From the NCBI GenBank assembly GCA_000004985.1, contig GG738871.1: a DNA stretch of 64,000 nt; one strand, 5' to 3'. Below the pieces are notes generated by a model. The model saw only the letters and a list, made by a program, of their open reading frames with translations, did no database searches and was not told the DNA's origin. Shown piece after piece: positions 5,399 to 50,401 of this stretch. Every line of letters begins with the position of its first letter. Within the stretch, counting starts at the first letter, position 1. Position numbers and translations under genes: made by a program. The stretch comes from Naegleria gruberi. Its lineage: Eukaryota.

Positions 5399-7037
5399 AT
5401 GGTTTCGTCTACTAAGCAATTAACTATTGTTCTGACATTATTGTTTGCTTTTGCAATCATTAACATTTCACATGCTGCTGTTTATCAAGTGAAAGATGCT
5501 GTTACTTTGTGGAGTACTTTTGGTAAGCTCCAAGCTGGTAAGTTTCTAATAACAATGTTTGAATCAAATTAACAACCTCTTTGCATGTAATCGTGTCCGT
5601 TGGCATGTCAAAAACCTATTCGAAACTTGAATAGGTGACGAAATGATCATTAGACAAGGAACCTATTCCACATCCACAGGTGGATCTTACTATAGACAAT
5701 TCACATTGAGAGGTACATCCGCATTACCAATCAAAGTTTATGCTTGGAAAAACGAAACTGTCGAAATTAAGGGAGACGCAGCTGCCAGTCAAAATATTCT
5801 AAACTTTGATGTTGAATATTTTGTCATGGATAATCTTGGTTTCTCTCAAGGAAGTCGTGGTTTAAGATTTTTAAATTCGAAACATTCAGTTTATTCGAAT
5901 CTGAGAGTTAAAAACACTGGTGATGTTGGTATCTCCATGAATGATGGAAATGCGCTTTATCAAAACAATACATTCAGATATAATGAAGTTTCGTATACTA
6001 GAGGAACTGGTGAATGTTTCTATTTGGGTTGTAATAATGCTGGATGCAAGTTTATTTTCAATTTATTGGAAAATAACTATTGTCATCACACAAGCACTGC
6101 AGCCCAAGGAGATGGTATTGAAATCAAGACTGGAAGTTATGGAAATGTTGTTCGAAACAATGTCATTCATGATGGAAACTATCCTGGTATTACCTTATAT
6201 AGTACTTATTACAATGGTGTAGATAAGGATATTGGCATTGCTAATCCAAATATTATTGAAGGAAATATCATTTGGACTGTCAAAGACAATGGCATACAAG
6301 TGACAGGTAATGCCATTATAAGAAATAACATTATTTACAATGCAGGTGCAAGTGGAATTGCCATTCAAACCAATCAAGGAATTGTCGAAAATGTCAAAGT
6401 ATTGCACAATACAGTTGTCAAAGCAGGTGCTGCTTGTATTAGAGTGACAAATTCAGGTCCAGGAATTTTGATTGCAAATAATGCTGCCTATTGTGAAACA
6501 ACAAGTTCCGTTTATATTGCCTCAGCATTGCCTGCTGATGGAATTATCTCAAGAAATGTCATTCAGGGCTCGACTAATGTTCAAGTTGTGAATGGAACTC
6601 TCAATATTGGTAAATTCACAACTGATTTCCAAGGGAGTAGCGCCTTGCCATATAATGTGTTCCCAGTTGTTTCCAGTAATGTGCTTGGAAAGGCAGATTC
6701 AAAGTATGCTACCACTTATGATTTCAATTTTAATACTAGAAATGGGCCAACTTATGATTGTGGTGCTTATCAAGCTAATGGAGCTACTTCAAATCCTGGT
6801 TGGATTCCAACAACTGGTTTTAAGAATACTAATGCTCCAACTCCAGTCAATCCTGTAACTCCTGGTGCTTCAAAGACTCCAACTCCAGTCAATCCAGGCA
6901 CTTCAAAGACAACACCAACCAATCCAGCAAATAGTCCAACTGCAGTTAATTCAAACAAGAGAGTTAACAATGCGAATGTTTTGATGCAAAGTATTGCTGC
7001 CATGATTGTTGGTTTGCTTGTATTCATTGCTATTTAA
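5399..7037 (+). CDS. Secreted right-handed parallel beta-helix (pectin-lyase-fold-like) repeat protein with Pro/Thr linker and C-terminal hydrophobic GPI-like tail; exons 5399..5537, 5635..7037
   Basis: Signal peptide MVSSTKQLTIVLTLLFAFAIINISHA. Intron 5538..5634 (GTAAGT...ATAG), frame preserved. Repeated beta-helix-like motifs (NNVIHDGN, IEGNIIWT, IRNNIIYNAG, ISRNVIQG). PT-rich stretch (PTPVNPVTPGASKTPTPVNPGTSKTTPTNP). Terminal hydrophobic VLMQSIAAMIVGLLVFIAI. Confidence 0.55.
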
Positions 7038-21866: not shown

Positions 21867-22791
21867 CTATTCATCATCATCTGACAAGTCGACAGCAGCA
21901 CTCTCAGTCTTTTTTCTCTTTTCTTCTTCTTGTCTCTTAATTTCCTTTCTGATTTTGAAAGTAAGGGATGGGCTTTCCACAAGGTCTGCTTCAGTAATTC
22001 TTGATTCCCTACAACCAATAATAGGACATTCGAAAAATCCCCCTCCAGTTCTCAATTTTTGGAAAGCCACTGTCTTTTCGTATACGTGTTTACATTTCTT
22101 TGATTGAATAGGTTCTTGTAAATTAGAACCAGTCCATGGACATGTTGTTTTAATAGTAACTTGTGACAATTGAATATCATCATCATCGTCACCTTCCTGG
22201 TTCCAATCCAATTCTGCTGTTGGGTCGTGCACTTGCATGATAGAGAGTTTGAAATTTTGGTATTCCTCCACTTTCTTGATTGACTGATCATCATATTCCT
22301 TCTCAGTATTTGTTTTGATATTATTATCATAAAATTGTGACACTGTTCTTAAATCCTATTCAATTAATAATAATTTAGATAATAAATATTGTTGTTAATT
22401 ATTGATTAAATTGTTATTAAATTCTACTACGTACAATTCCAGGAGATTCCAATATTTGTTGAAGTGTAGCCGTATGACCTTTTGTCATTCGGAGTAAATC
22501 CAAATAATCCCTAACAATAGAATCAATTTGTTCAACTTGTATTTTGTTACGTTCATATTCGGGATCGTCAGGCAAAGATGATCCTTCAATATCTTTTGCC
22601 AGCGTTGTCAATAATTCTATATTTTCCAGCATGGTTGTAGTATTTTCATTGTGTGCTTTTTGCAAGGGTTTAATTTCCAACTGCACAAGCCTAAATGCGC
22701 CTCCTTGATGTTGACTTGAAGACATTTTTTGTGTGATGGAAATTAATTCTTCTTTAATTTTTAGGAAAAATTTTTGAAAATTTAGCGCCAA
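21867..22791 (-). CDS. NSE2: SMC5/6-complex SUMO ligase NSE2/MMS21-like (SP-RING); exons 22435..22791 and 21867..22355
   Basis: Intron 22356..22434 (GTACGT...AATAG) joins the two ORFs in frame (…ESPGI|DLRTVSQFYDN…). C-terminal SP-RING pattern CPWTGSNLQEPIQSKKCKHVYEKTVAFQKL....FECPIIGC. Acidic tail. Stop is TAG. Confidence 0.5.
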
Positions 22792-40471: not shown

Positions 40472-42451
40472 TTAATGTCTATTATTGGATGTATTTTCTG
40501 AAATATGGTTAAACCTGCTGGCGTGTCCTCGATTGTGAATTTGTGTTCTACAATCGCGACCATACCAACAAGTTGGTCTGGATGTTACAGTGGCAGGTAA
40601 GTCAGCAGAATCAATTTCAGCTCTATAACAGTAAATGAGTTCGTTAAAGTACTTGTAGGCACATGATTGACAGAATCGTGAATCAGTTGTAAAGTTTGGA
40701 TAGGAAGGGTGAGTGTAGGTGCCAGATTCAACCTTAGTCATGCATGTATTGTAAACATCCTGAACTGTAATATTCTTTGTTCTAATATAATCAATTAAGA
40801 TATCTCGTTCAACTTGATTATTGTTCAAACAAGTGGAAGGCAAAGAAATTATAGAAGTGTGTTCTTTGAGTTTGTGAATTCCTGAAATGTAGCATGGACT
40901 TTGAGTATTGGTAACTTGTTTGTATAAATTACAATAAATCATTCCACATAATTCACAGTTTTGTCTTCTATCAGGGGAAAGAGAAGTGTCATGGTGTCTG
41001 AAAGCTAATCTACAATTACATGTTGAACAAGAGTTATGGAGGGCATGAGCAGCACATTGATAGTTATCGATAGGATTTGGATTTGTACATTCATCACAAA
41101 CACGAACTGGCGTATCATCATCACTGTCACTTTCATCAGATGATGTCTCATCACGTCTGTTTCTTCTACGACGATGATAATCATCGTCACTATCGCTGTC
41201 ACTATCGTCATTATTATTATTATTTCTCTTATAGAGAACAAGATCAGTCTTATTAATGTAAGCATCCTTCTTGTCCATTTCCTCTTTTTCTTCCTTTTCA
41301 CGATCTTGCTTTGGATGTGTTTTCAAGTAAGTCTCTGTCAAGTTGTTCAATGTTGGATTTTTTCTAACTTCTTGGATGGTAGCTCTGCAAGTTGGACAAT
41401 TCATATTTTGACCAAAATATGAATTATTATTGCTTGGATTTAACCAAGAAGAAAGACATGAAGAGCAAAAGTTATGCAAGCATGGAATAACAGACACTGG
41501 TCTATAGAAGATACCAGAACAAATTGGGCAGGTCAATTCATTAGCCATTGCATCATCCTCTTGACTTTCTTCCATATCTGAATCAGTGGCACCAAGTAAG
41601 GCCAATAGCTTTTTGTCTTGTTCAGAGAGTGATTTCTTTTGTTTTTTTCCACTGCCATTTTCTGGTGTTTCACTTTCTGCTTTTCTCTTCTTCTCATTTT
41701 CGTCATCTGATTCTTTTTCAGAGCTAGCAGAGGCTGTGGCACTACTCGATGGATTTACGTCATCTTTGGATGGTGTCTTAAAAGGTGAGTTTCGTTTTGG
41801 TGTAGAAGTAGTATCAGAGCTTGGGGATGAAGCTCCAATGTTACTGGAACTGGCAGTAGCTGATGATGCATTTTCAACTGTTGCTGGTTCCACAGCAAGG
41901 TCTACTATTTCTTGAGTACGTTGCTCCTCTTGATCTGCCAATTCTTGTGTTTGTTGATTAGGAGGAGGTGTACTATTACAAAGTGCCAATGTGTAGATTG
42001 GTAATTCTGAGCTTAGTTTGTGAGAAATAGAGGGAACAACCAATCCTATCGTATCTCCCTCTGAAAGAATTACACTATTATTGGTACCAAGTTTCTTTCC
42101 ATTCACAAAACATCCATTTCTTCCAAGATCAGTGAATTGAATAGAATATTTAGTAGGATCGGAAGATGCCTTTCCTTCATCACAGATAATATTCACTCGT
42201 CCATGCACTGTTGATATTCTTCCATCAGAAAAAATACATTCGGGTCTAAACTCTGGCTTTCTTCCCAATTCAATTACCTTCTCATCACTATAAATTATTA
42301 TTGCATTAAAATTTGATGGTGAAATAGCAGGAATTAATTTTGCAATCTCTACTCTTTTCACCTCTGATTCTGCTATTACCTCGGATGATGGTGCATCATC
42401 TTCGTTATTATCGACAATAATTTCATCCAATGTTGCGTCGAGTGTGGCCAT
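40472..42451 (-). CDS. CHFR: CHFR-like E3 ubiquitin ligase (FHA + RING + C-terminal Cys-rich region)
   Basis: FHA domain (IELGRKPEF...GRNGCFVNGKKL...SEGDTIGLV). RING CPICSGIFYRPVSVIPCLHNFCSSCLSSW...NCPTCR. C-terminal Cys-rich CDECTNP..C..C..C.C, as in CHFR. Confidence 0.7.
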   Translation of the reverse strand: MATLDATLDEIIVDNNEDDAPSSEVIAESEVKRVEIAKLIPAISPSNFNAIIIYSDEKVIELGRKPEFRPECIFSDGRISTVHGRVNIICDEGKASSDPTKYSIQFTDLGRNGCFVNGKKLGTNNSVILSEGDTIGLVVPSISHKLSSELPIYTLALCNSTPPPNQQTQELADQEEQRTQEIVDLAVEPATVENASSATASSSNIGASSPSSDTTSTPKRNSPFKTPSKDDVNPSSSATASASSEKESDDENEKKRKAESETPENGSGKKQKKSLSEQDKKLLALLGATDSDMEESQEDDAMANELTCPICSGIFYRPVSVIPCLHNFCSSCLSSWLNPSNNNSYFGQNMNCPTCRATIQEVRKNPTLNNLTETYLKTHPKQDREKEEKEEMDKKDAYINKTDLVLYKRNNNNNDDSDSDSDDDYHRRRRNRRDETSSDESDSDDDTPVRVCDECTNPNPIDNYQCAAHALHNSCSTCNCRLAFRHHDTSLSPDRRQNCELCGMIYCNLYKQVTNTQSPCYISGIHKLKEHTSIISLPSTCLNNNQVERDILIDYIRTKNITVQDVYNTCMTKVESGTYTHPSYPNFTTDSRFCQSCAYKYFNELIYCYRAEIDSADLPATVTSRPTCWYGRDCRTQIHNRGHASRFNHISENTSNNRH

Positions 42452-43452: not shown

Positions 43453-44455
43453 ATGTCTATCCCGAAGATTCAAGAATTAAATCAAGACTTGCTACATGTA
43501 ATTTTTAGTCATCTAACGGAGGAGGATGTACACAATTTTATGATTTCCAACAAGTCTATTTATGAGTATTGTATAAGGGACGATGTTTATAAAATAATAT
43601 TTAATCAAGTGATTGATCGAGTTGAATTATTTCCTATGAAGGAAGTGTTCAATCCCGAGTCAAGAAATATGGAGGCCAATACTGAAAATACAAATCATAA
43701 ACTGAAGAATATTGAGAAAAATTATAGAAAGGAATTAGTGAAATATGGAAAAAACACCAAGTCAACCAATCGTTTTTTTACTAAGCAAGAAATTATGGAA
43801 ATGACTGTGGATACTAAAAAACTGAAAACAGCTACAGAAAATAAGGAAATCAAATTTGTAATAGTTGGAGATGGCGCTGTAGGAAAAACCACATTTTTAC
43901 GAAGGATTGCAATGCCAATGGATATTGATGCATTTATTCCAACAGTTTATGACTTTTATTCATATCAAGCAAAAAACCTATCATTTCAATTGTAGGATAG
44001 TGCAGGACAAGAAGAGTAAGTAATCATTTATTTTGAAAATGATTCAGATTTTTAGTTATGACAAATTAAGACCATTGTGTTATCCAGGAACGGAAATGTT
44101 CTTGTTGGCTTATTCAATAACTCAAAGAGAGAGCTTTTTCAATATTAAAAAGAAATTCATAAGGGAGGTGAAATATCATGTACCAAATGTGAATTGTGTA
44201 CTTGTTGCATGTAAAATTGATTTAAGAAATAATCAAGATGTAATGGACAGATTAGCAAAAAGATATGAACAACCAGTCTCATTTGAAGAAGGATTGAAAT
44301 TAGCCAAGCATTTGAAATGTTTAACTTTTTGGGAAACCTCATCTACAACTGAGGAAGGATTTGAACAAATAGGAGATTTCTTTACAAAATTATATTACCT
44401 GAAACATTCTTTGGCCTTCAAAGAAAACAAATCTAAAACTTGCTTTCTTCAATAA
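43453..44455 (+). CDS. F-box-like N-terminal domain fused to a Rho-family small GTPase (C-terminal CFLQ CaaX), interrupted by an in-frame TAG at 43993–43995; second exon 44062..44455
   Basis: F-box-like LNQDLLHVIFSHLTEEDVHNF. G1 KFVIVGDGAVGKTTF. Switch I PTVYDFYS. Then LSFQL-TAG-DSAGQEE, where Rho proteins have LWDTAGQE. Intron GTAAGT...TTTTAG (43996..44061). Then YDKLRPLCYPGTEMFLLAYS, CKIDL, ETSS, ...KTCFLQ. Confidence 0.55.
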
Positions 44456-44544: not shown

Positions 44545-44625
44545 CGCGGTCTACAGGACTCGAACCTGTGCGGGTCACCCCAATTGATTTCTAGTCAATC
44601 ACCTTAACCACTCGGTCAAGACCGC
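44545..44625 (-). tRNA. tRNA-Ser (anticodon AGA)
   Basis: Reverse complement folds as a class II tRNA: 7-bp acceptor GCGGTCT/AGACCGC, D-loop GAGTGGTTAAGG, anticodon stem ATTGA/TCAAT with loop CTAGAAA (anticodon AGA), long variable arm GGGGTGACCC, T-arm GGTTCGAGTCC. Confidence 0.85.
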
Positions 44626-44708: not shown

Positions 44709-44781
44709 TGCCGACACCAGGGATCGAACCAGGGACCTTAAGATCTTCAGTCTTACGCTCTCCCAACTGAGCTATGTCGGC
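44709..44781 (-). tRNA. tRNA-Phe (anticodon GAA)
   Basis: Reverse complement GCCGACATAGCTCAGTTGGGAGAGCGTAAGACTGAAGATCTTAAGGTCCCTGGTTCGATCCCTGGTGTCGGCA is canonical eukaryotic tRNA-Phe with loop CTGAAGA. 73 nt, no intron. Confidence 0.9.
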
Positions 44782-45070: not shown

Positions 45071-48000
45071 ATGGTTTTCAGCTCATCCTCTAAAGAGGAG
45101 GCTTCTCTTCTCCACAACAATAACCATGAACAACAACAACAACACAATTCACCCAGCAACAGTAGTGGCGGGTTCAAATTTTCCCTCTCTTCTCTGATGG
45201 GCGCCAAAACCAAAACACAAAATAATAACAATAACACCTCAACTACAATTTCCGCCTCCTCATCAACCTTGGCATCATTGAATAATCCGTATGCTGCCTT
45301 TACAAATTCATTCTCCTCGGAGGGAATCCTTTCTAATTTAAATAATATTAATAATAATAATAATGGAAGTACATCAAGTAGTGGCAATAATACACCAAGA
45401 AGGAAAATATCAAATCCTAAAGCTATTCCTCTCCTGAATACAGCATTGATTTCTTCGAATTTAATTTCGGAACCAATAATTGATCATGGCACTACTGTAA
45501 ATTTTGCAACTGCTCAAGTTGATCATCCCAATACGAAACTCTATTCTATTATTCACGAATTACAATTAAATGTAAATTTTAATCAGGGAATGAATAGTGG
45601 TAATTGGACTGGATATTTTGAAGGAATATTACAGGAAAATGTTAATAATTTTGGATCACCTGGAATTGTTTCAACAACTCCGAGAGGAAATCATCATGTT
45701 ATTTCTCAATCAATGCCATATCTTTCAAATTCAAATCCTAATTCACCTTCGTCTTCGTCTTCATTTGGTGAGAAAACCAGAGGATTGAGGAATTTAGTAA
45801 TGGGAAAATCAATGAATAATTTAGATTTTTCGCCATCATCAATTAGTCAATTTGATGCCTACTTGATGAAGAAGGAAAGGAAATTATTACAAAAGTTTGG
45901 AAGATTTCCATATATAAGAATTTCTGCAGTCAAAAGTGGGAATGTTACTCCAAGAACTCCTCGAACGCCAAGAACTCCAAGAGCTAGCCCTCTTGTCATA
46001 ATGAGGCCAAAGGAAAATACAAGTAATATGGAGGAATTAGTATTGGATGCCGGAAGTCTAATACTTTCACCTAGACCAAGTATGTCATCAACACCAAGAT
46101 CTGATAGATCATTGGATGGTGATTCACCAATCACTGAATACTCAATTGATGATGTAACATTTCTTGATCGTCCAACAACTGACAATATTACTAACTTGTT
46201 AGAATCGAGGTATAACAAAAAGGATCAATCACAAAAGAAATCTCCCCAAGTTTATACTTATCTTGGAGATGCATTGAGTAAGTTTATTCTTTCAAATCAA
46301 GTGGTATTAATACTGGGCTAGTTTTTGTAAATCCAAATGATATTAAGGAAACTGAAGGATTGTATAAGAACAGCGTAATGCACTTTTACCACAAGAAACT
46401 TCCATTTGCTAGAGCTCCCCATATTTTTTCGATAGCAGAGAATGCATTTAGAACCATGAAAGAAACAAGGCAACCACAAACAATAATTGGTATGTATTTG
46501 TTTTAACATTAATTTATGACGTGAAAAATTACAATAGTGAATGGTGAAAGTGGTTCTGGAAAAACGGAGAGTAGCAAACTCATTCTCAAATATTTAACAG
46601 TTGTCTCACAAAATGGGCCTTCATCTTACTTTGTAAAACATGTATTAACAGAATCAAATCAACTTTTAGAAGCTTTCGGAAATGCAAAAACTCTGCACTG
46701 TGACAATTCATCCAGATTCGGTAAATATACTACTGTTTATTTTGGATTTGGTGATAGAATTGAAGGTGGAAAAATTAGTACAGTAAGTATAATTTAAATT
46801 ATCAAAACTCATTTCATCCTTTCAGATTCTGTTGGAAAAAAGTCACATTACGAATCAGAGAAAAAAGGAAAGAAATTTCCACATATTCTATCAGCTATGC
46901 AGAGGAGCAGATAGATCTATGAAAGAGGAATTCAATCTGCATGATCCATCTGAGTTCTTGTATCTAAACTCTACAGAGACAGTGATAGATGGAGTCGATG
47001 ATATGCGAGAATTTAAAAAAACAATTAAGAGTATGGATTCAATAGGATTTTCGAGTAATGACCGGAAAGAAATATTCAGGGTAGTTGCAGGAATTTTACA
47101 TTTAGGAAATATTCAATTTTTGGAAGGTAATTCAAAAGATAGAGCAGAAATAGTGGAAAATGATGCCCTCAAGTGGGCCTCATTATGCTTGGGAGTTCAA
47201 CCTAATCAACTAAAGCATGCTCTATTGGCACGTACTTTGAATACCGAGGAAAAGGTTGTTACTTTTCAAACTGCTGTTCAAGCTAGATTCAACAGGGATG
47301 CTCTGGCGAAAGGTATTTACGAGAGACTTTTTCTGTGGATAGTTCAGAAAATCAATTCAGTAATCAAACCAAAAACAAAGAAAATGGTTACAAAAATTGG
47401 TATTTTAGATTTGTATGGTTTTGAAATTTATCCATCCGATAACTCTCTAGAACAGTTGAATATCAACTTTGTAAATGAAAAACTTCAACAACACACATTG
47501 AAGCTCTTACAACAGGAGAAAGATGAATATGTGAAGGAAGGAATTTTCAACATGGATCTATTCACCATACTGTCTAAGGAGTTGAAAAAAGATTTTCTCT
47601 CTGATTTTGATACTATTAATGATTGTATTAGCTGTATAGAAGACAAACCACTGGGTATCTACTCACTCCTGGATGAAGAAGATTACCTTAACGTTTCAGG
47701 TGATGAAAGATATCTTGCTAAATTGAAAGAGAATTTGAAAAAGTCAAATAGTTTCGAACCTGCAAGATTCAAAAGTACTACCTTTAGTCTTAAACATTTT
47801 GCAGCTAAGGTAGATTATAACGTTACTGATTGGGTCAAAAAGAACAAGGATACATTGTTCAAAGATCTAATTGATGCCATGTGTAAGAGTTCGTCAGACC
47901 TGGTACAAGAACTTTTTAAACCATTAGACGACTTCTATTCAGGAAGAGAAAGCAAACGAAGACTTCAAGAAACCATTGTAAAACAATTTAAACGAGATGT

Positions 48001-50401
48001 AAACAAATTAATGAACAAGAAACTGAAAGGGAAAATCCATTTCATTTACTGTATAAAACCTAACTATGAGAAGAAGGCACTAAAATTTGACAAGAAATTA
48101 ATCACCAACCAGGTCAAATGTTTGGGATTAAGTTCAATATCCATATTCAAACAACATGGATTTTTCTTTAAAATGGATTATCCCAAGTTCTTTGCCAAGT
48201 ATAAAGCACTTAGTCCTAAAACTTGGCCCTCCTCCTCTGCAGATTTTGATATTGAAGAATTGAAATCCAAAATTAGAAGTATTCTGGCAGAAACCAAAAT
48301 AGAGAGTAACAATTATGCATTTGGAAAAACTGAAATTTTCCTTAAAACACCACTCGATGTTGCTACTTTGATAGATAGATTTGAGCAAATTCAGGAAGCT
48401 GTTGCTGTACTCATCCAGAGAAAGTACAGAGAGGTAATTCACAAAAGAGTAAGAAGAAAATCTGAAAAGATTAAGGGACAGCTGACCAGTGTACATGAGA
48501 GAATCTACTCAGATTATGGAGAGCATAATGTCGTTCAAATTACCAATGGAAAGTCGATATCAAGGTTATTGGTTATTTCAAAGACAAATATTTGCTTTTT
48601 AGAGCCCAATACTTATGAATTGGTGTTTAATTTCCCTCTCTCAATCATTTACAGACTTTGTATGAGCAGATTTAGTGATGGTATCTTTATAATTTGTATG
48701 AGAAATTTTGGTGATATCATTCTGGATGTAGAAAATAAGCAACACCTATATCAAGATATCGAATCTTCCTTTCACAAACTAATGGCATCTTTACTGGACT
48801 CTTACAAACCAATAAGCATAGAGTTTCATTCAATATTCTATGTTAATCCTTCTGTGCTTGTATTGGAAGATAATGAAATGAAACAAAAAGCAGAATATGA
48901 AATATTCTCAAATTCTTTACCAAGAAATAGTAATGGTGATTATCAACACCAAATCAATCTTGAAAATAATGAAGAACCTCCAATGAATGAGAATGGCTAT
49001 ACTGTTCAATTTTTGAAAGACTATACAATAGCAGCTATGAAAATAGAAAGAAGACCTAACAATGAAGGGTTGATAGTTTATGTGAAGCCCAACGAGGATG
49101 TCTACTCTGGTAAAAAGAAGAGAAGACAAGGAAGTTTTGATAGATATTTTGTGGGAGACTCTTTGAGATGGAAGGAAAAATTGGGAGAGGACAGAGATAT
49201 TCTATTTTCTGACCTAGTTGACAAGTATCACAAATCATTTAAAAAATCAGAAAGGTATCTCATTATTACAGAAAGATCCGTCTATTTGGAGCATAAATTC
49301 TTAAAGAAGAGAAGAAGGATACCTCTTAGGAAAATTTACAAAATTTCTGTTTCTCCATTCACTGACCACTACTTTTTTATTCACGTGAAGGGAGAAAGTG
49401 ACGTGCTATTGGAAAGTATCAAAAAGACTGAAATTATTTCAATACTTACTAATACTGTTAAATCTACTCTACCAAGAGTTTTTGAAATTGACATTACAAA
49501 TACAGTAACGCAAGTGACTAAAAATCCTACACTAGTTCGTCAAGTAATATTTGAGGAAGTTTCATCTCCAAAATCTTGCAAAGTTGAATACACAAAAGCC
49601 AGTGAGCCAATCAAAGTCTATATTCATAATGAGGATGTCGTTGATGAGTTTGCCAAGACAATTCTGGATGTATATGGTGGAAAGAAATCGAGAAGAATTT
49701 GTTCTCTCAAATCAGCTGACGAAATTGAAGATGCTATATTTATGAGGGAAGTACTAATGAGTGACAATACCACTCCTCTCTTTGTGGCTGAAGTTGAGTT
49801 TGTAAATCCATATTCATTGAGCTCAGTCAGAAAGAATATGAGTATTTCTAATAGTACAATATTTTTACTTGGAAAGAAGGGAAGTGATGGTTTAAGAATT
49901 GAAATTGAGGAAATCACTTCTATCAAATGTAGCAGTCAATGTGATGATCTATTTGTAATGTTTTGTGGAGATTCGGCATATCTGTTCAACTCTGAGTTAA
50001 AGACTAAAATTATTGAAACTCTCAGAGCTGCCAATAGTAAGATACAAATTTTGGTTGAACCTAAATTAATAATTCCATTCAAAGATTTATTTGTTTGGGA
50101 TGGAGAGATGAGTGTTAGCAGTTCTGAATCTTTGCCTAGCCTTATTGAAAGACCTGTTGAAGTGGAAGAGCCTATGACTCCACCATCAACACCATCTACA
50201 CATTTTCTTGAATCTCCTCTCGTCAAGAAGAAGGGCACAAATGGATACTTAATTATAGTTGTCCTTGTTGACAGAAATATCTCAGAACCAAAAATTATGT
50301 GCAATAATGAACAAGCCAATGCTAAATTGACAATTCGAATTAATGATCAAGATCCTGCCTTTCCTTTTTATCCTCTTTTCTCAAAGAGTAAAAAGGTCTA
50401 A
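45071..50401 (+). CDS. Unconventional myosin heavy chain (~1731 aa) with ~340-aa low-complexity N-terminal extension; exons 45071..46277, 46322..46489, 46538..46782, 46826..50401
   Basis: N/S/T-rich N-terminus. Motor domain: DDVTFLDRPTTDNITNLLESRY...VYTYLGDAL|(I)FVNP; P-loop NGESGSGKTES; ILLEKSHITNQRKKERNFHIFYQLC; LDLYGFEIY (switch II); an IQ-like VLIQRKYREVIHKRVRRK. Then a ~650-aa tail without recognisable domains. Introns 46278..46321, 46490..46537 and 46783..46825 (GTAAGT/GTATGT..AG). Confidence 0.8.

What the first reader, a model, noticed from the sequence alone, without database searches (positions are those of the whole stretch)
43453..44455. Rho-family GTPase with F-box-like N-terminus and an in-frame TAG replacing the invariant Trp of the LWDTAGQE motif
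Codon 43993–43995 is TAG exactly where Rho/Rac proteins have TGG (W) in LWDTAGQE (here LSFQL*DSAGQEE), a single G>A transition. The downstream exon (YDKLRPLCYP..CKIDL..ETSS..CFLQ) remains perfectly Rho-like. This suggests either a very recent nonsense mutation (nascent pseudogene), a strain polymorphism or a base-call error. TAG is used as a genuine stop elsewhere in the window (genes ending at 21867 and 50414), so reassignment is unlikely. The N-terminal about 130 aa resembles an F-box (LNQDLLHVIFSHLTEEDV). If real, this is an unusual F-box–GTPase fusion.
Basis: seen in the sequence. Interest (0 to 1): 0.55.

Follow-up and report, generated by a model that had tools for sequence, protein, structure and literature searches.

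The report
Stop-interrupted F-box–Rac gene in Naegleria
This is a known Naegleria gruberi gene from a published family of Rac-type GTPases with an N-terminal F-box, and the reference sequence carries one premature TAG stop in it, which is most likely an ordinary recent knockout or a base-call error, not a new biological mechanism.

Summary
TAG lies at 43993-43995. It is codon 181 of a two-exon, 320-codon gene: exon 1 43453-44015, a 40-nt GTAAGT..TAG intron, exon 2 44056-44455. The stop aligns with the Trp of LWDTAGQE in Rho/Rac proteins.

The window is a Naegleria gruberi NEG-M nuclear scaffold. The locus is NAEGRDRAFT_68255 / XP_002676560.1, and the automatic model is a 108-aa fragment that ends at this TAG.

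Herman et al. 2021 (PMC8296547, Table S8) already list a manually corrected 320-aa "Rac" model for this gene. It is identical to my reconstruction but has W written at the stop, and it is not flagged as a pseudogene. Their supplement also reports F-box fusions to Rab, Rho, Ran and Gα GTPases as common in Naegleria.

The F-box claim is supported at family level. The gene alone scores below the Pfam cut-off (17.3 vs 20.5 bits). A profile of N. gruberi paralogue N-termini matches F-box at 95% hhalign probability.

Everything else in the gene is intact. The TAG is therefore either a very recent or heterozygous nonsense mutation (favoured) or a sequencing error. No independent sequence of this locus was available to decide.

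Novelty: already known. Interest is low.

The parts
43453..44015 (+). Exon 1 of NAEGRDRAFT_68255 (codons 1-187 plus 2 nt of codon 188)
   Evidence: ORF from the ATG at 43453. The start is the same as in the curated model of Herman et al. 2021, Table S8.
43462..43605 (+). Divergent F-box (residues 4-51)
   Evidence: Pfam PF00646 17.3 bits, E 0.0046, residues 6-46, below the 20.5-bit cut-off. The two-sequence profile against validated F-boxes scored 19.4, and none of 300 column shuffles reached it. The 11-paralogue profile against F-box gave hhalign probability 95.4%, E 1.7e-8, residues 4-51. A paralogue HMM hits this N-terminus at 48 bits.
43606..43851 (+). Family-specific linker between the F-box and the GTPase domain (includes the VFNP and KNYRxEL motifs shared with paralogues)
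   Evidence: Conserved with XP_002671994.1/L001 and with other N. gruberi F-box-Rac paralogues. There is no Pfam match.
43669..43995 (+). Automatic GenBank/JGI model XP_002676560.1 / EFC43816.1 (108 aa, Met73-Leu180, ending at the TAG)
   Evidence: P0126 is 100% identical to residues 73-180 and comes from the 417,575-bp N. gruberi contig.
43852..44371 (+). Rho/Rac-type GTPase domain (residues 134-293, interrupted by the intron)
   Evidence: Pfam Ras PF00071, 1.8e-33. It is 38-41% identical to Rac/Cdc42 proteins, with the Rho-insert region aligned without gaps.
43867..43890 (+). P-loop GDGAVGKT (G1)
   Evidence: Invariant columns in the alignment with Rho proteins.
43993..43995 (+). In-frame TAG, codon 181, at the Trp position of LWDTAGQE
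43996..44013 (+). G3 / switch II start, DSAGQE
   Evidence: Aligned to DTAGQE of Rho proteins.
43992..43997 (+). Weak cryptic 5' splice site GTAGGA. Joining it to the acceptor at 44055 is in frame and would skip the TAG (hypothetical only)
   Evidence: Spliced in silico it gives a 312-aa open frame...NLSFQF|YDKLRPL.... There is no RNA evidence.
44016..44055 (+). Intron, 40 nt, GTAAGT...TTTTAG, phase 2
   Evidence: Removing it restores ...AGQE-D-YDKLRPL..., which is collinear with Rho proteins. The junction is the same as in the curated model.
44056..44455 (+). Exon 2 (codons 188-320 plus the TAA stop)
44441..44452 (+). C-terminal CAAX prenylation box, CFLQ
   Evidence: It aligns with the CAAX boxes of Rho proteins. 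Paralogues end in CFLQ, CLIQ, CIIL or CQLM.

Best explanation
The locus is NAEGRDRAFT_68255. It is a lineage-specific member of the expanded Naegleria gruberi family of Rac-type GTPases that carry an N-terminal F-box and a C-terminal CAAX box. If intact, the protein would most plausibly act as a membrane-anchored (prenylated) SCF-type ubiquitin-ligase substrate receptor. The F-box would bind Skp1, and the Rac-like domain would provide nucleotide-state-dependent partner binding. This function is inferred and has not been shown. In the reference NEG-M sequence a single G-to-A transition has turned the Trp codon TGG (the W56 position of Rac1) into TAG. Naegleria uses the standard genetic code, so this copy can only produce a 180-residue fragment (F-box plus half a GTPase fold), or its mRNA would be degraded. 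It is therefore a very recently inactivated gene, or a null allele in a heterozygous diploid. That fits the birth-and-death turnover already described for these expanded GTPase families.
For: The organism and locus are identified by exact protein matches. The TAG sits at the W column. TGG is the only one-step precursor of TAG among the residues that paralogues have at this site. TAG behaves as a stop elsewhere in the window: it ends 8 of 36 long ORFs, one of them identical to an annotated protein, and dropping TAG from the stop set barely lengthens ORFs. No suppressor tRNA is present in the window. The rest of the gene is intact: both splice sites, G1 to G5, the Rho-insert region and the CAAX box. 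About 5.9% of possible substitutions in this CDS would create a stop, so neutral divergence above about 5% since inactivation is unlikely (P about 0.06). Whatever happened is therefore recent. Herman et al. 2021 report more than 80 Rho genes in N. gruberi, F-box as the most frequent added domain, and members of related expanded clades disrupted by mutations (birth-and-death evolution). Most Naegleria Rho GTPases belong to the accessory genome. Naegleria is described as a heterozygous diploid. Many paralogues have degenerate or deleted G3 motifs, which indicates relaxed constraint on this very region.
Against: No independent sequence of this locus could be found, so a base-call error is not excluded. 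The specialists who curated the family wrote W at this codon and did not tick their 'putative pseudogene' column. That suggests they regarded the stop as an artefact, or overlooked it. A gene with a single lesion cannot be told apart from an intact gene with one wrong base.
Confidence: 0.6

Rival explanations
1. The TAG is a base-call or consensus error in the draft NEG-M assembly. The true codon is TGG, and the gene is an intact, functional F-box-Rac.
For: It is the only defect in 320 codons. The curated model in Herman et al. 2021 Table S8 reads W at this position and is not marked as a pseudogene. The single-base change needed is exactly the one that restores the family's majority residue.
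Against: There is no positive evidence for an error. The automatic annotation and the deposited sequence both carry TAG. By my own rough estimate (not a tool result), real nonsense variants in a heterozygous genome with fast-turnover gene families should outnumber substitution errors that happen to create stops.
Confidence: 0.25
2. The TAG is real but is spliced out. The weak upstream donor GTAGGA at 43992, joined to the normal acceptor at 44055, removes L-stop-DSAGQED in frame. The product would be a 312-aa pseudo-GTPase lacking G3, like two paralogues that lack this segment.
For: The in-silico splice is in frame and open to the CAAX box. The G-to-A change that makes TAG also turns GTGGGA into GTAGGA, which puts A at position +3 of that site (seen directly in the sequence). 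The curated paralogues XP_002671994.1 and ACER01000440.1 lack the G3/switch II segment at the same exon junction. For the first of these, the DNA of a 98.6%-identical strain (L001) confirms that no G3 coding sequence is present, while the ORF and the CAAX box are kept.
Against: A perfect GTAAGT donor lies 24 nt downstream and should outcompete GTAGGA, which matches the donor consensus at 4 of 6 positions and has no exon-side match. No RNA data are available. The crude intron scan of the window was too noisy to rate GTAGGA. The position is offset by one codon from the paralogue's donor.
Confidence: 0.07
3. The TAG is recoded at the RNA or translation level, either by A-to-I editing of UAG to UGG (which restores Trp) or by programmed read-through.
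For: The only support is circumstantial. The stop sits exactly where one A-to-G change restores the consensus residue, and the rest of the gene is intact. Editing of this kind is known in some filamentous fungi (my own knowledge, not tested here).
Against: Nuclear A-to-I mRNA editing and programmed UAG read-through have not been reported in Naegleria, as far as I know. No suppressor tRNA is present in the window. The sequence after the stop, UAG-GAU, is not a known leaky context (my own knowledge). Near-cognate read-through of UAG would not insert Trp.
Confidence: 0.03
4. TAG is reassigned to a sense codon in this organism.
For: None beyond this single codon.
Against: TAG ends 8 of 36 long ORFs in the window, including one identical to an annotated protein. 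Removing TAG from the stop set raises the number of ORFs of at least 150 aa only from 46 to 50. N. gruberi is annotated with the standard code.
Confidence: 0.01

Closest known systems
Naegleria F-box-Rac (Rho-family) fusion proteins, described in Herman et al. 2021, BMC Biol 19:142, Additional files 4 and 10
   Same: This gene is itself listed there, as Rac, corrected model XP_002676560.1*. The architecture is the same: N-terminal F-box-type extension, family-specific linker, Rac-like GTPase and CAAX box. Its N-terminus is homologous to paralogues that those authors flagged as F-box.
   Different: The authors did not list an F-box for this member, and it falls below the Pfam cut-off on its own. 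The deposited DNA has TAG where their model has W. It has no close paralogue (27-31% full-length identity). The accession appears only in the N. gruberi sheet of that table, so no one-to-one N. fowleri orthologue is listed for it.
RhoBTB atypical Rho GTPases (a Rho domain fused to BTB domains that recruit Cullin-3)
   Same: Both fuse a Rho-type GTPase domain to a cullin-RING ligase adaptor module. This suggests GTPase-linked ubiquitination by analogy, as Herman et al. also propose.
   Different: The adaptor here is an N-terminal F-box (the Skp1/Cul1 route), not C-terminal BTB domains (Cul3). No BTB match was found. This protein also keeps a CAAX box.
Canonical Rac1/Cdc42
   Same: The GTPase core is 38-41% identical, with P-loop, switch I Thr, DxxGQE, xKxD, the Rho-insert region and CAAX all present.
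   Different: It has a 132-residue N-terminal extension and a 4-residue deletion in the beta2-beta3 hairpin. Many otherwise near-invariant residues are changed (for example DNY to DFY, TKxD to CKID, ECSA to ETSS). There is a stop at the W56 position.
Unitary (non-processed) pseudogenes caused by a single nonsense mutation
   Same: There is one premature stop in an otherwise intact gene that still contains its intron.
   Different: Whether the stop is real, fixed or heterozygous is unknown.

Membership tests
Rho-family small GTPase | Ras-superfamily GTPase domain with G1 P-loop GxxxxGK[ST] | tested here: met
   Pfam PF00071 at 1.8e-33 over residues 134-293. GDGAVGKT is aligned with Rho proteins.
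Rho-family small GTPase | G3 motif DxxGQE following a hydrophobic strand, with Trp/Phe at the Rac1-56 position | tested here: not met
   DSAGQE is present, but the residue before it is a TAG stop in the deposited sequence.
Rho-family small GTPase | Rho insert (the extra helical segment between G4 and G5) | tested here: met
   DLRNNQDVMDRLAKRYEQPVSF aligns without gaps to the insert region of Rac/Cdc42 sequences.
Rho-family small GTPase | C-terminal CAAX prenylation box | tested here: met
   The protein ends in CFLQ immediately before the TAA stop, aligned with the CAAX boxes of homologues.
Rho-family small GTPase | GTP binding and hydrolysis | not testable with these tools
   This needs biochemistry on a W-restored protein.
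F-box protein (SCF substrate receptor) | Match to the Pfam F-box model above the gathering score | tested here: not met
   PF00646 scores 17.3 bits against a cut-off of 20.5 (E 0.0046). PF12937 gives E 0.12. The LP motif reads LN, and the conserved Trp positions are Ile and Tyr.
F-box protein (SCF substrate receptor) | Profile-level homology to bona fide F-box domains | tested here: met
   The profile of 11 N. gruberi paralogue N-termini, compared with 10 F-boxes validated by Pfam, gives hhalign probability 95.4%, E 1.7e-8, over residues 4-51. Five of the 11 members hit PF00646 individually at E of 0.05 or better, the best at 6.8e-6. This gene's N-terminus matches the HMM built from the other paralogues at 48 bits, against a shuffle maximum of 12.
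F-box protein (SCF substrate receptor) | Three-helix F-box fold | tested here: inconclusive
   The AlphaFold2 model of residues 1-132 has a mean pLDDT of 40.9. Helices are predicted at 11-18, 23-31 and 34-40, but the model is too poor for a fold search.
F-box protein (SCF substrate receptor) | Binding to Skp1 | not testable with these tools
   This needs a yeast two-hybrid or co-immunoprecipitation assay.
RhoBTB | Tandem BTB domains C-terminal to the Rho domain | tested here: not met
   There is no BTB match in Pfam even at E up to 10. The protein ends 27 residues after the GTPase domain.
Processed (retro-copied) pseudogene | Loss of introns, with a poly-A remnant | tested here: not met
   A 40-nt GT..AG intron is retained.

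The most novel reading that the evidence does not exclude
The TAG is genuine and the gene is still used. One route is editing of UAG to UGG on the mRNA, as in the stage-specific A-to-I editing that repairs premature stops in some fungi. The other is a switch to the upstream GTAGGA donor, which would yield a membrane-anchored F-box pseudo-GTPase lacking G3, like its paralogues XP_002671994.1 and ACER01000440.1. Either route would make this a conditionally expressed gene and not a dead one.
Probability: 0.08. Interest if true: 0.6.

Novelty: already known. Interest (0 to 1): 0.2.

Why it matters
It matters little beyond annotation. The GenBank model for this locus (108 aa) is a truncation artefact caused by the stop. 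The published curated model (320 aa) hides the stop by writing W. Anyone using either model should know that the deposited DNA has TAG. The wider idea is that Naegleria couples small-GTPase switches to SCF-type ubiquitin ligases through F-box fusions. That idea is interesting but already published and still untested experimentally. This gene is one ordinary, and possibly dead, member of that family.

Tried and rejected
1. Independent sequence of the locus. Exact look-ups of the 180-aa ORF and of other window ORFs, word-index and full HMMER searches with the N-terminus, a JGI metagenome scan and two viral-contig scans found only the reference model P0126 and one paralogue contig. TAG versus TGG therefore could not be checked.

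2. L001 (ENA metagenome ERZ929261). I first took it for an orthologue from another species. It is in fact 98.6% identical to the N. gruberi paralogue XP_002671994.1, and its flanks are not syntenic with the window.

3. Structure route to the F-box. The AlphaFold2 model of residues 1-132 with a two-sequence alignment had pLDDT 40.9, so no fold search was run. A PDB sequence search with the two-sequence profile gave only chance hits.

4. TAG as the 3' splice acceptor of an upstream intron. In-frame GT...TAG options exist (for example GTTTAT at 43945, 51 nt). They would delete switch I and beta2-beta3, or the P-loop, and their donors are poor. Rejected.

5. Empirical donor consensus from the window. 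The ORF-joining scan gave 763 candidates and was too noisy to rate GTAGGA.

6. Intron conservation between this gene and L001. It is not significant: 305 of 2000 shuffles reached the observed score.

7. TAG reassignment. Rejected.

8. Local paralogue or tandem duplicate. None is present in the window.

9. The Fritz-Laylin 2010 genome paper is not held in the library, so coverage and error-rate figures could not be cited.

Full report
**What is in the sequence.**
An ATG at 43453 opens a frame that runs to a TAG at 43993-43995. Seven codons further on there is a consensus donor (GA|GTAAGT at 44016). A 40-nt intron ends in TTTTAG at 44055. Joining 44015 to 44056 restores ...DSAGQE-D-YDKLRPLCYP..., and the frame then runs to TAA at 44453-44455. 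The spliced CDS is 963 nt (320 codons) and has exactly one internal stop, at codon 181. A random frame of this length in this base composition would have one stop or fewer with a probability of about 8e-10.

**Identity of the window and the locus.**
Three single-exon ORFs of the window are identical to Naegleria gruberi NEG-M proteins (EFC43808, EFC43819, EFC43821) from one 417,575-bp contig. The locus carries the automatic model EFC43816.1 / XP_002676560.1 / NAEGRDRAFT_68255. That model is a 108-aa "predicted protein" running from Met73 to Leu180, so it was terminated by this very TAG.

**The GTPase half.**
- Pfam Ras matches residues 134-293 at 1.8e-33.
- The best database relatives are Rac/Cdc42-type proteins at 38-45% identity over the GTPase half only.
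- In an alignment with nine of them, the stop lies in the column where all nine have Trp.
- GDGAVGKT, the switch I PTV, DSAGQE, CKID, ETSS, the Rho-insert region and a terminal CAAX box (CFLQ) are all in place.
- The protein is also divergent. It has a 4-residue deletion in the beta2-beta3 hairpin and several changes at otherwise near-invariant positions.

**What the literature already says.**
Herman et al. 2021 (BMC Biol 19:142, PMC8296547) curated the Ras superfamily of N. gruberi and N. fowleri.
- Their Table S8 lists this gene as "Rac" with a manually corrected sequence under XP_002676560.1*. It is identical to my 320-aa reconstruction, except that W is written at position 181.
- The "putative pseudogene?" and "additional domain" columns are empty for this entry.
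- Their supplementary text states that N. gruberi has more than 80 Rho genes.
- It also states that the F-box is the most frequent extra domain fused to Rab, Rho, Ran and Gα GTPase domains. This points to GTPase-dependent ubiquitination.
- It reports that some members of related expanded clades are disrupted by mutations, described as "birth-and-death evolution".
- Table S8 lists many Rac entries flagged F-box, Kelch/F-box or BTB.
- The accession occurs only in the N. gruberi sheet, so no one-to-one N. fowleri orthologue is listed for it.

What is not stated there is that the deposited DNA has a stop at codon 181.

**The F-box claim.**
- Alone, the N-terminus hits PF00646 over the whole model (residues 6-46) at 17.3 bits, E 0.0046. 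This is below the 20.5-bit gathering score.
- A full HMMER scan of 1.84 billion representative proteins found only one relative of the N-terminus, P0127.
- The contig carrying P0127 (L001) encodes a protein 98.6% identical to the N. gruberi paralogue XP_002671994.1. It is therefore a paralogue from a closely related strain and not an orthologue.
All ten had first been validated against Pfam. Column shuffles averaged 8.7 +/- 1.9, and none of 300 reached 19.4.
- Using the curated paralogue sequences from Table S8, an HMM of nine other N-terminal extensions hits this gene's N-terminus at 48 bits. The best of 2000 shuffles reached 12 bits.
- The 11-sequence family profile matches the F-box alignment at 95.4% hhalign probability, E 1.7e-8, over residues 4-51.
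- Five of the 11 members hit PF00646 individually at E of 0.05 or better, the best at 6.8e-6.

I conclude that residues ~4-51 are a divergent F-box. The next ~80 residues are a family-specific linker (VFNP..., KNYRxEL...). The AlphaFold2 model was too poor to use (pLDDT 40.9). Skp1 binding is untested.

**What the TAG means.**
- Reassignment can be set aside. TAG terminates 8 of 36 long ORFs in the window, one of them identical to an annotated protein. Dropping TAG from the stop set hardly changes the ORF landscape.
- The only tRNAs in the window are Ser-AGA and Phe-GAA.
- The gene retains its intron, so it is not a retro-copy.
- Within the N. gruberi F-box-Rac paralogues the position is W in 9 of 14, I in 2, F in 1, T in 1 and deleted in 1. 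Of these, only W (TGG) is one substitution from TAG. A G-to-A transition from TGG is therefore the parsimonious history.
- About 5.9% of all possible substitutions in this CDS would create another stop, and none has occurred. If the gene has been evolving neutrally since inactivation, less than about 5% divergence has accumulated (P(0 extra stops) = 0.06 at 5%).

The lesion is therefore very recent, heterozygous, or not real. Naegleria is described as a heterozygous diploid, and most Naegleria Rho GTPases belong to the accessory genome. This favours a real nonsense allele in a fast-turnover family. I give this 0.6. This weighting against a base-call error rests on my own rough prior, not on a tool result. 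A base-call error gets 0.25, and it is what the curators' W implies. No independent sequence of the locus exists in any collection I could search.

**A less ordinary possibility.**
The mutation that creates TAG also creates GTAGGA at 43992. Splicing from there to the normal acceptor is in frame and removes L-stop-DSAGQED. The result is a 312-aa open frame that keeps the CAAX box. Two paralogues, XP_002671994.1 and ACER01000440.1, lack the G3/switch II segment at this same exon junction. For the first, the DNA of the related strain confirms a 38-nt intron with no G3 remnant, an intact ORF and a CAAX box. Several other paralogues have degenerate G3 motifs (DLPCRD, DTAIHE, DLGCHP, DIVTDI). A form lacking G3 is therefore evidently tolerated in this family. 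However, the perfect GTAAGT donor 24 nt downstream should dominate, and I have no RNA data. I give this 0.07. RNA editing or read-through gets 0.03.

**Verdict.**
The object is already known: it is a curated member of a published Naegleria F-box-Rac family. The in-frame stop is most likely an ordinary recent nonsense mutation or a sequencing error. The useful by-products are the mismatch between the deposited DNA and both existing protein models, and family-level statistical support for the F-box in a member where the curators did not call it.

Noticed in passing
window 44545-44625 (-) and 44709-44781 (-): Two tRNA genes, Ser(AGA) and Phe(GAA), lie on the opposite strand. The first (Ser-AGA) begins 90 nt downstream of the gene's stop codon. 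Neither is a suppressor tRNA.
   Followed up: partly
L001 1123-2042 (ENA metagenome ERZ929261, contig k127_112041): This metagenome contig encodes a protein 289/293 identical to the curated N. gruberi paralogue XP_002671994.1. An amoeba of the N. gruberi complex is therefore present in that sample. The paralogue lacks the whole G3/switch II segment (..TFINLI|DVSIRKHQYP..) but keeps its P-loop, ORF and CAAX box, so it is a likely pseudo-GTPase.
   Followed up: yes
Table S8 of PMC8296547 (no window coordinates): Many N. gruberi F-box-Rac paralogues have degenerate G3 motifs (DLPCRD, DTAIHE, DTSGAD, DLGCHP, DIVTDI), or lack G3 entirely (ACER01000440.1). Much of this family may be made of non-hydrolysing or non-switching GTPase-like modules.
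   Followed up: partly
window 40472-42451 (-): The upstream neighbour is a CHFR-like E3 ligase (FHA + RING + zf-CRD + PBZ domains). Its exact sequence is not in the protein collection, so the annotated model probably differs.
   Followed up: no
window 46832-50401 (+): This is the large exon of a class I myosin (motor domain from profile position 176 onward, plus a TH1 tail). The N-terminal part of the motor must lie in upstream exons.
   Followed up: no
whole window: Among 36 long ORFs, TAA terminates 27, TAG 8 and TGA only 1. TGA appears to be strongly avoided as a terminator here.
   Followed up: no
window 5643-7037 (+): This beta-helix (NosD-like) protein, EFC43808, has a paralogue at 90% identity or more (EFC43797, 457 aa) on the same scaffold, and a third copy on an ENA contig.
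   Followed up: no
window 43992-43997: The G-to-A change that creates the stop also converts GTGGGA into GTAGGA. This is a weak potential 5' splice site that is in frame with the normal acceptor.
   Followed up: partly
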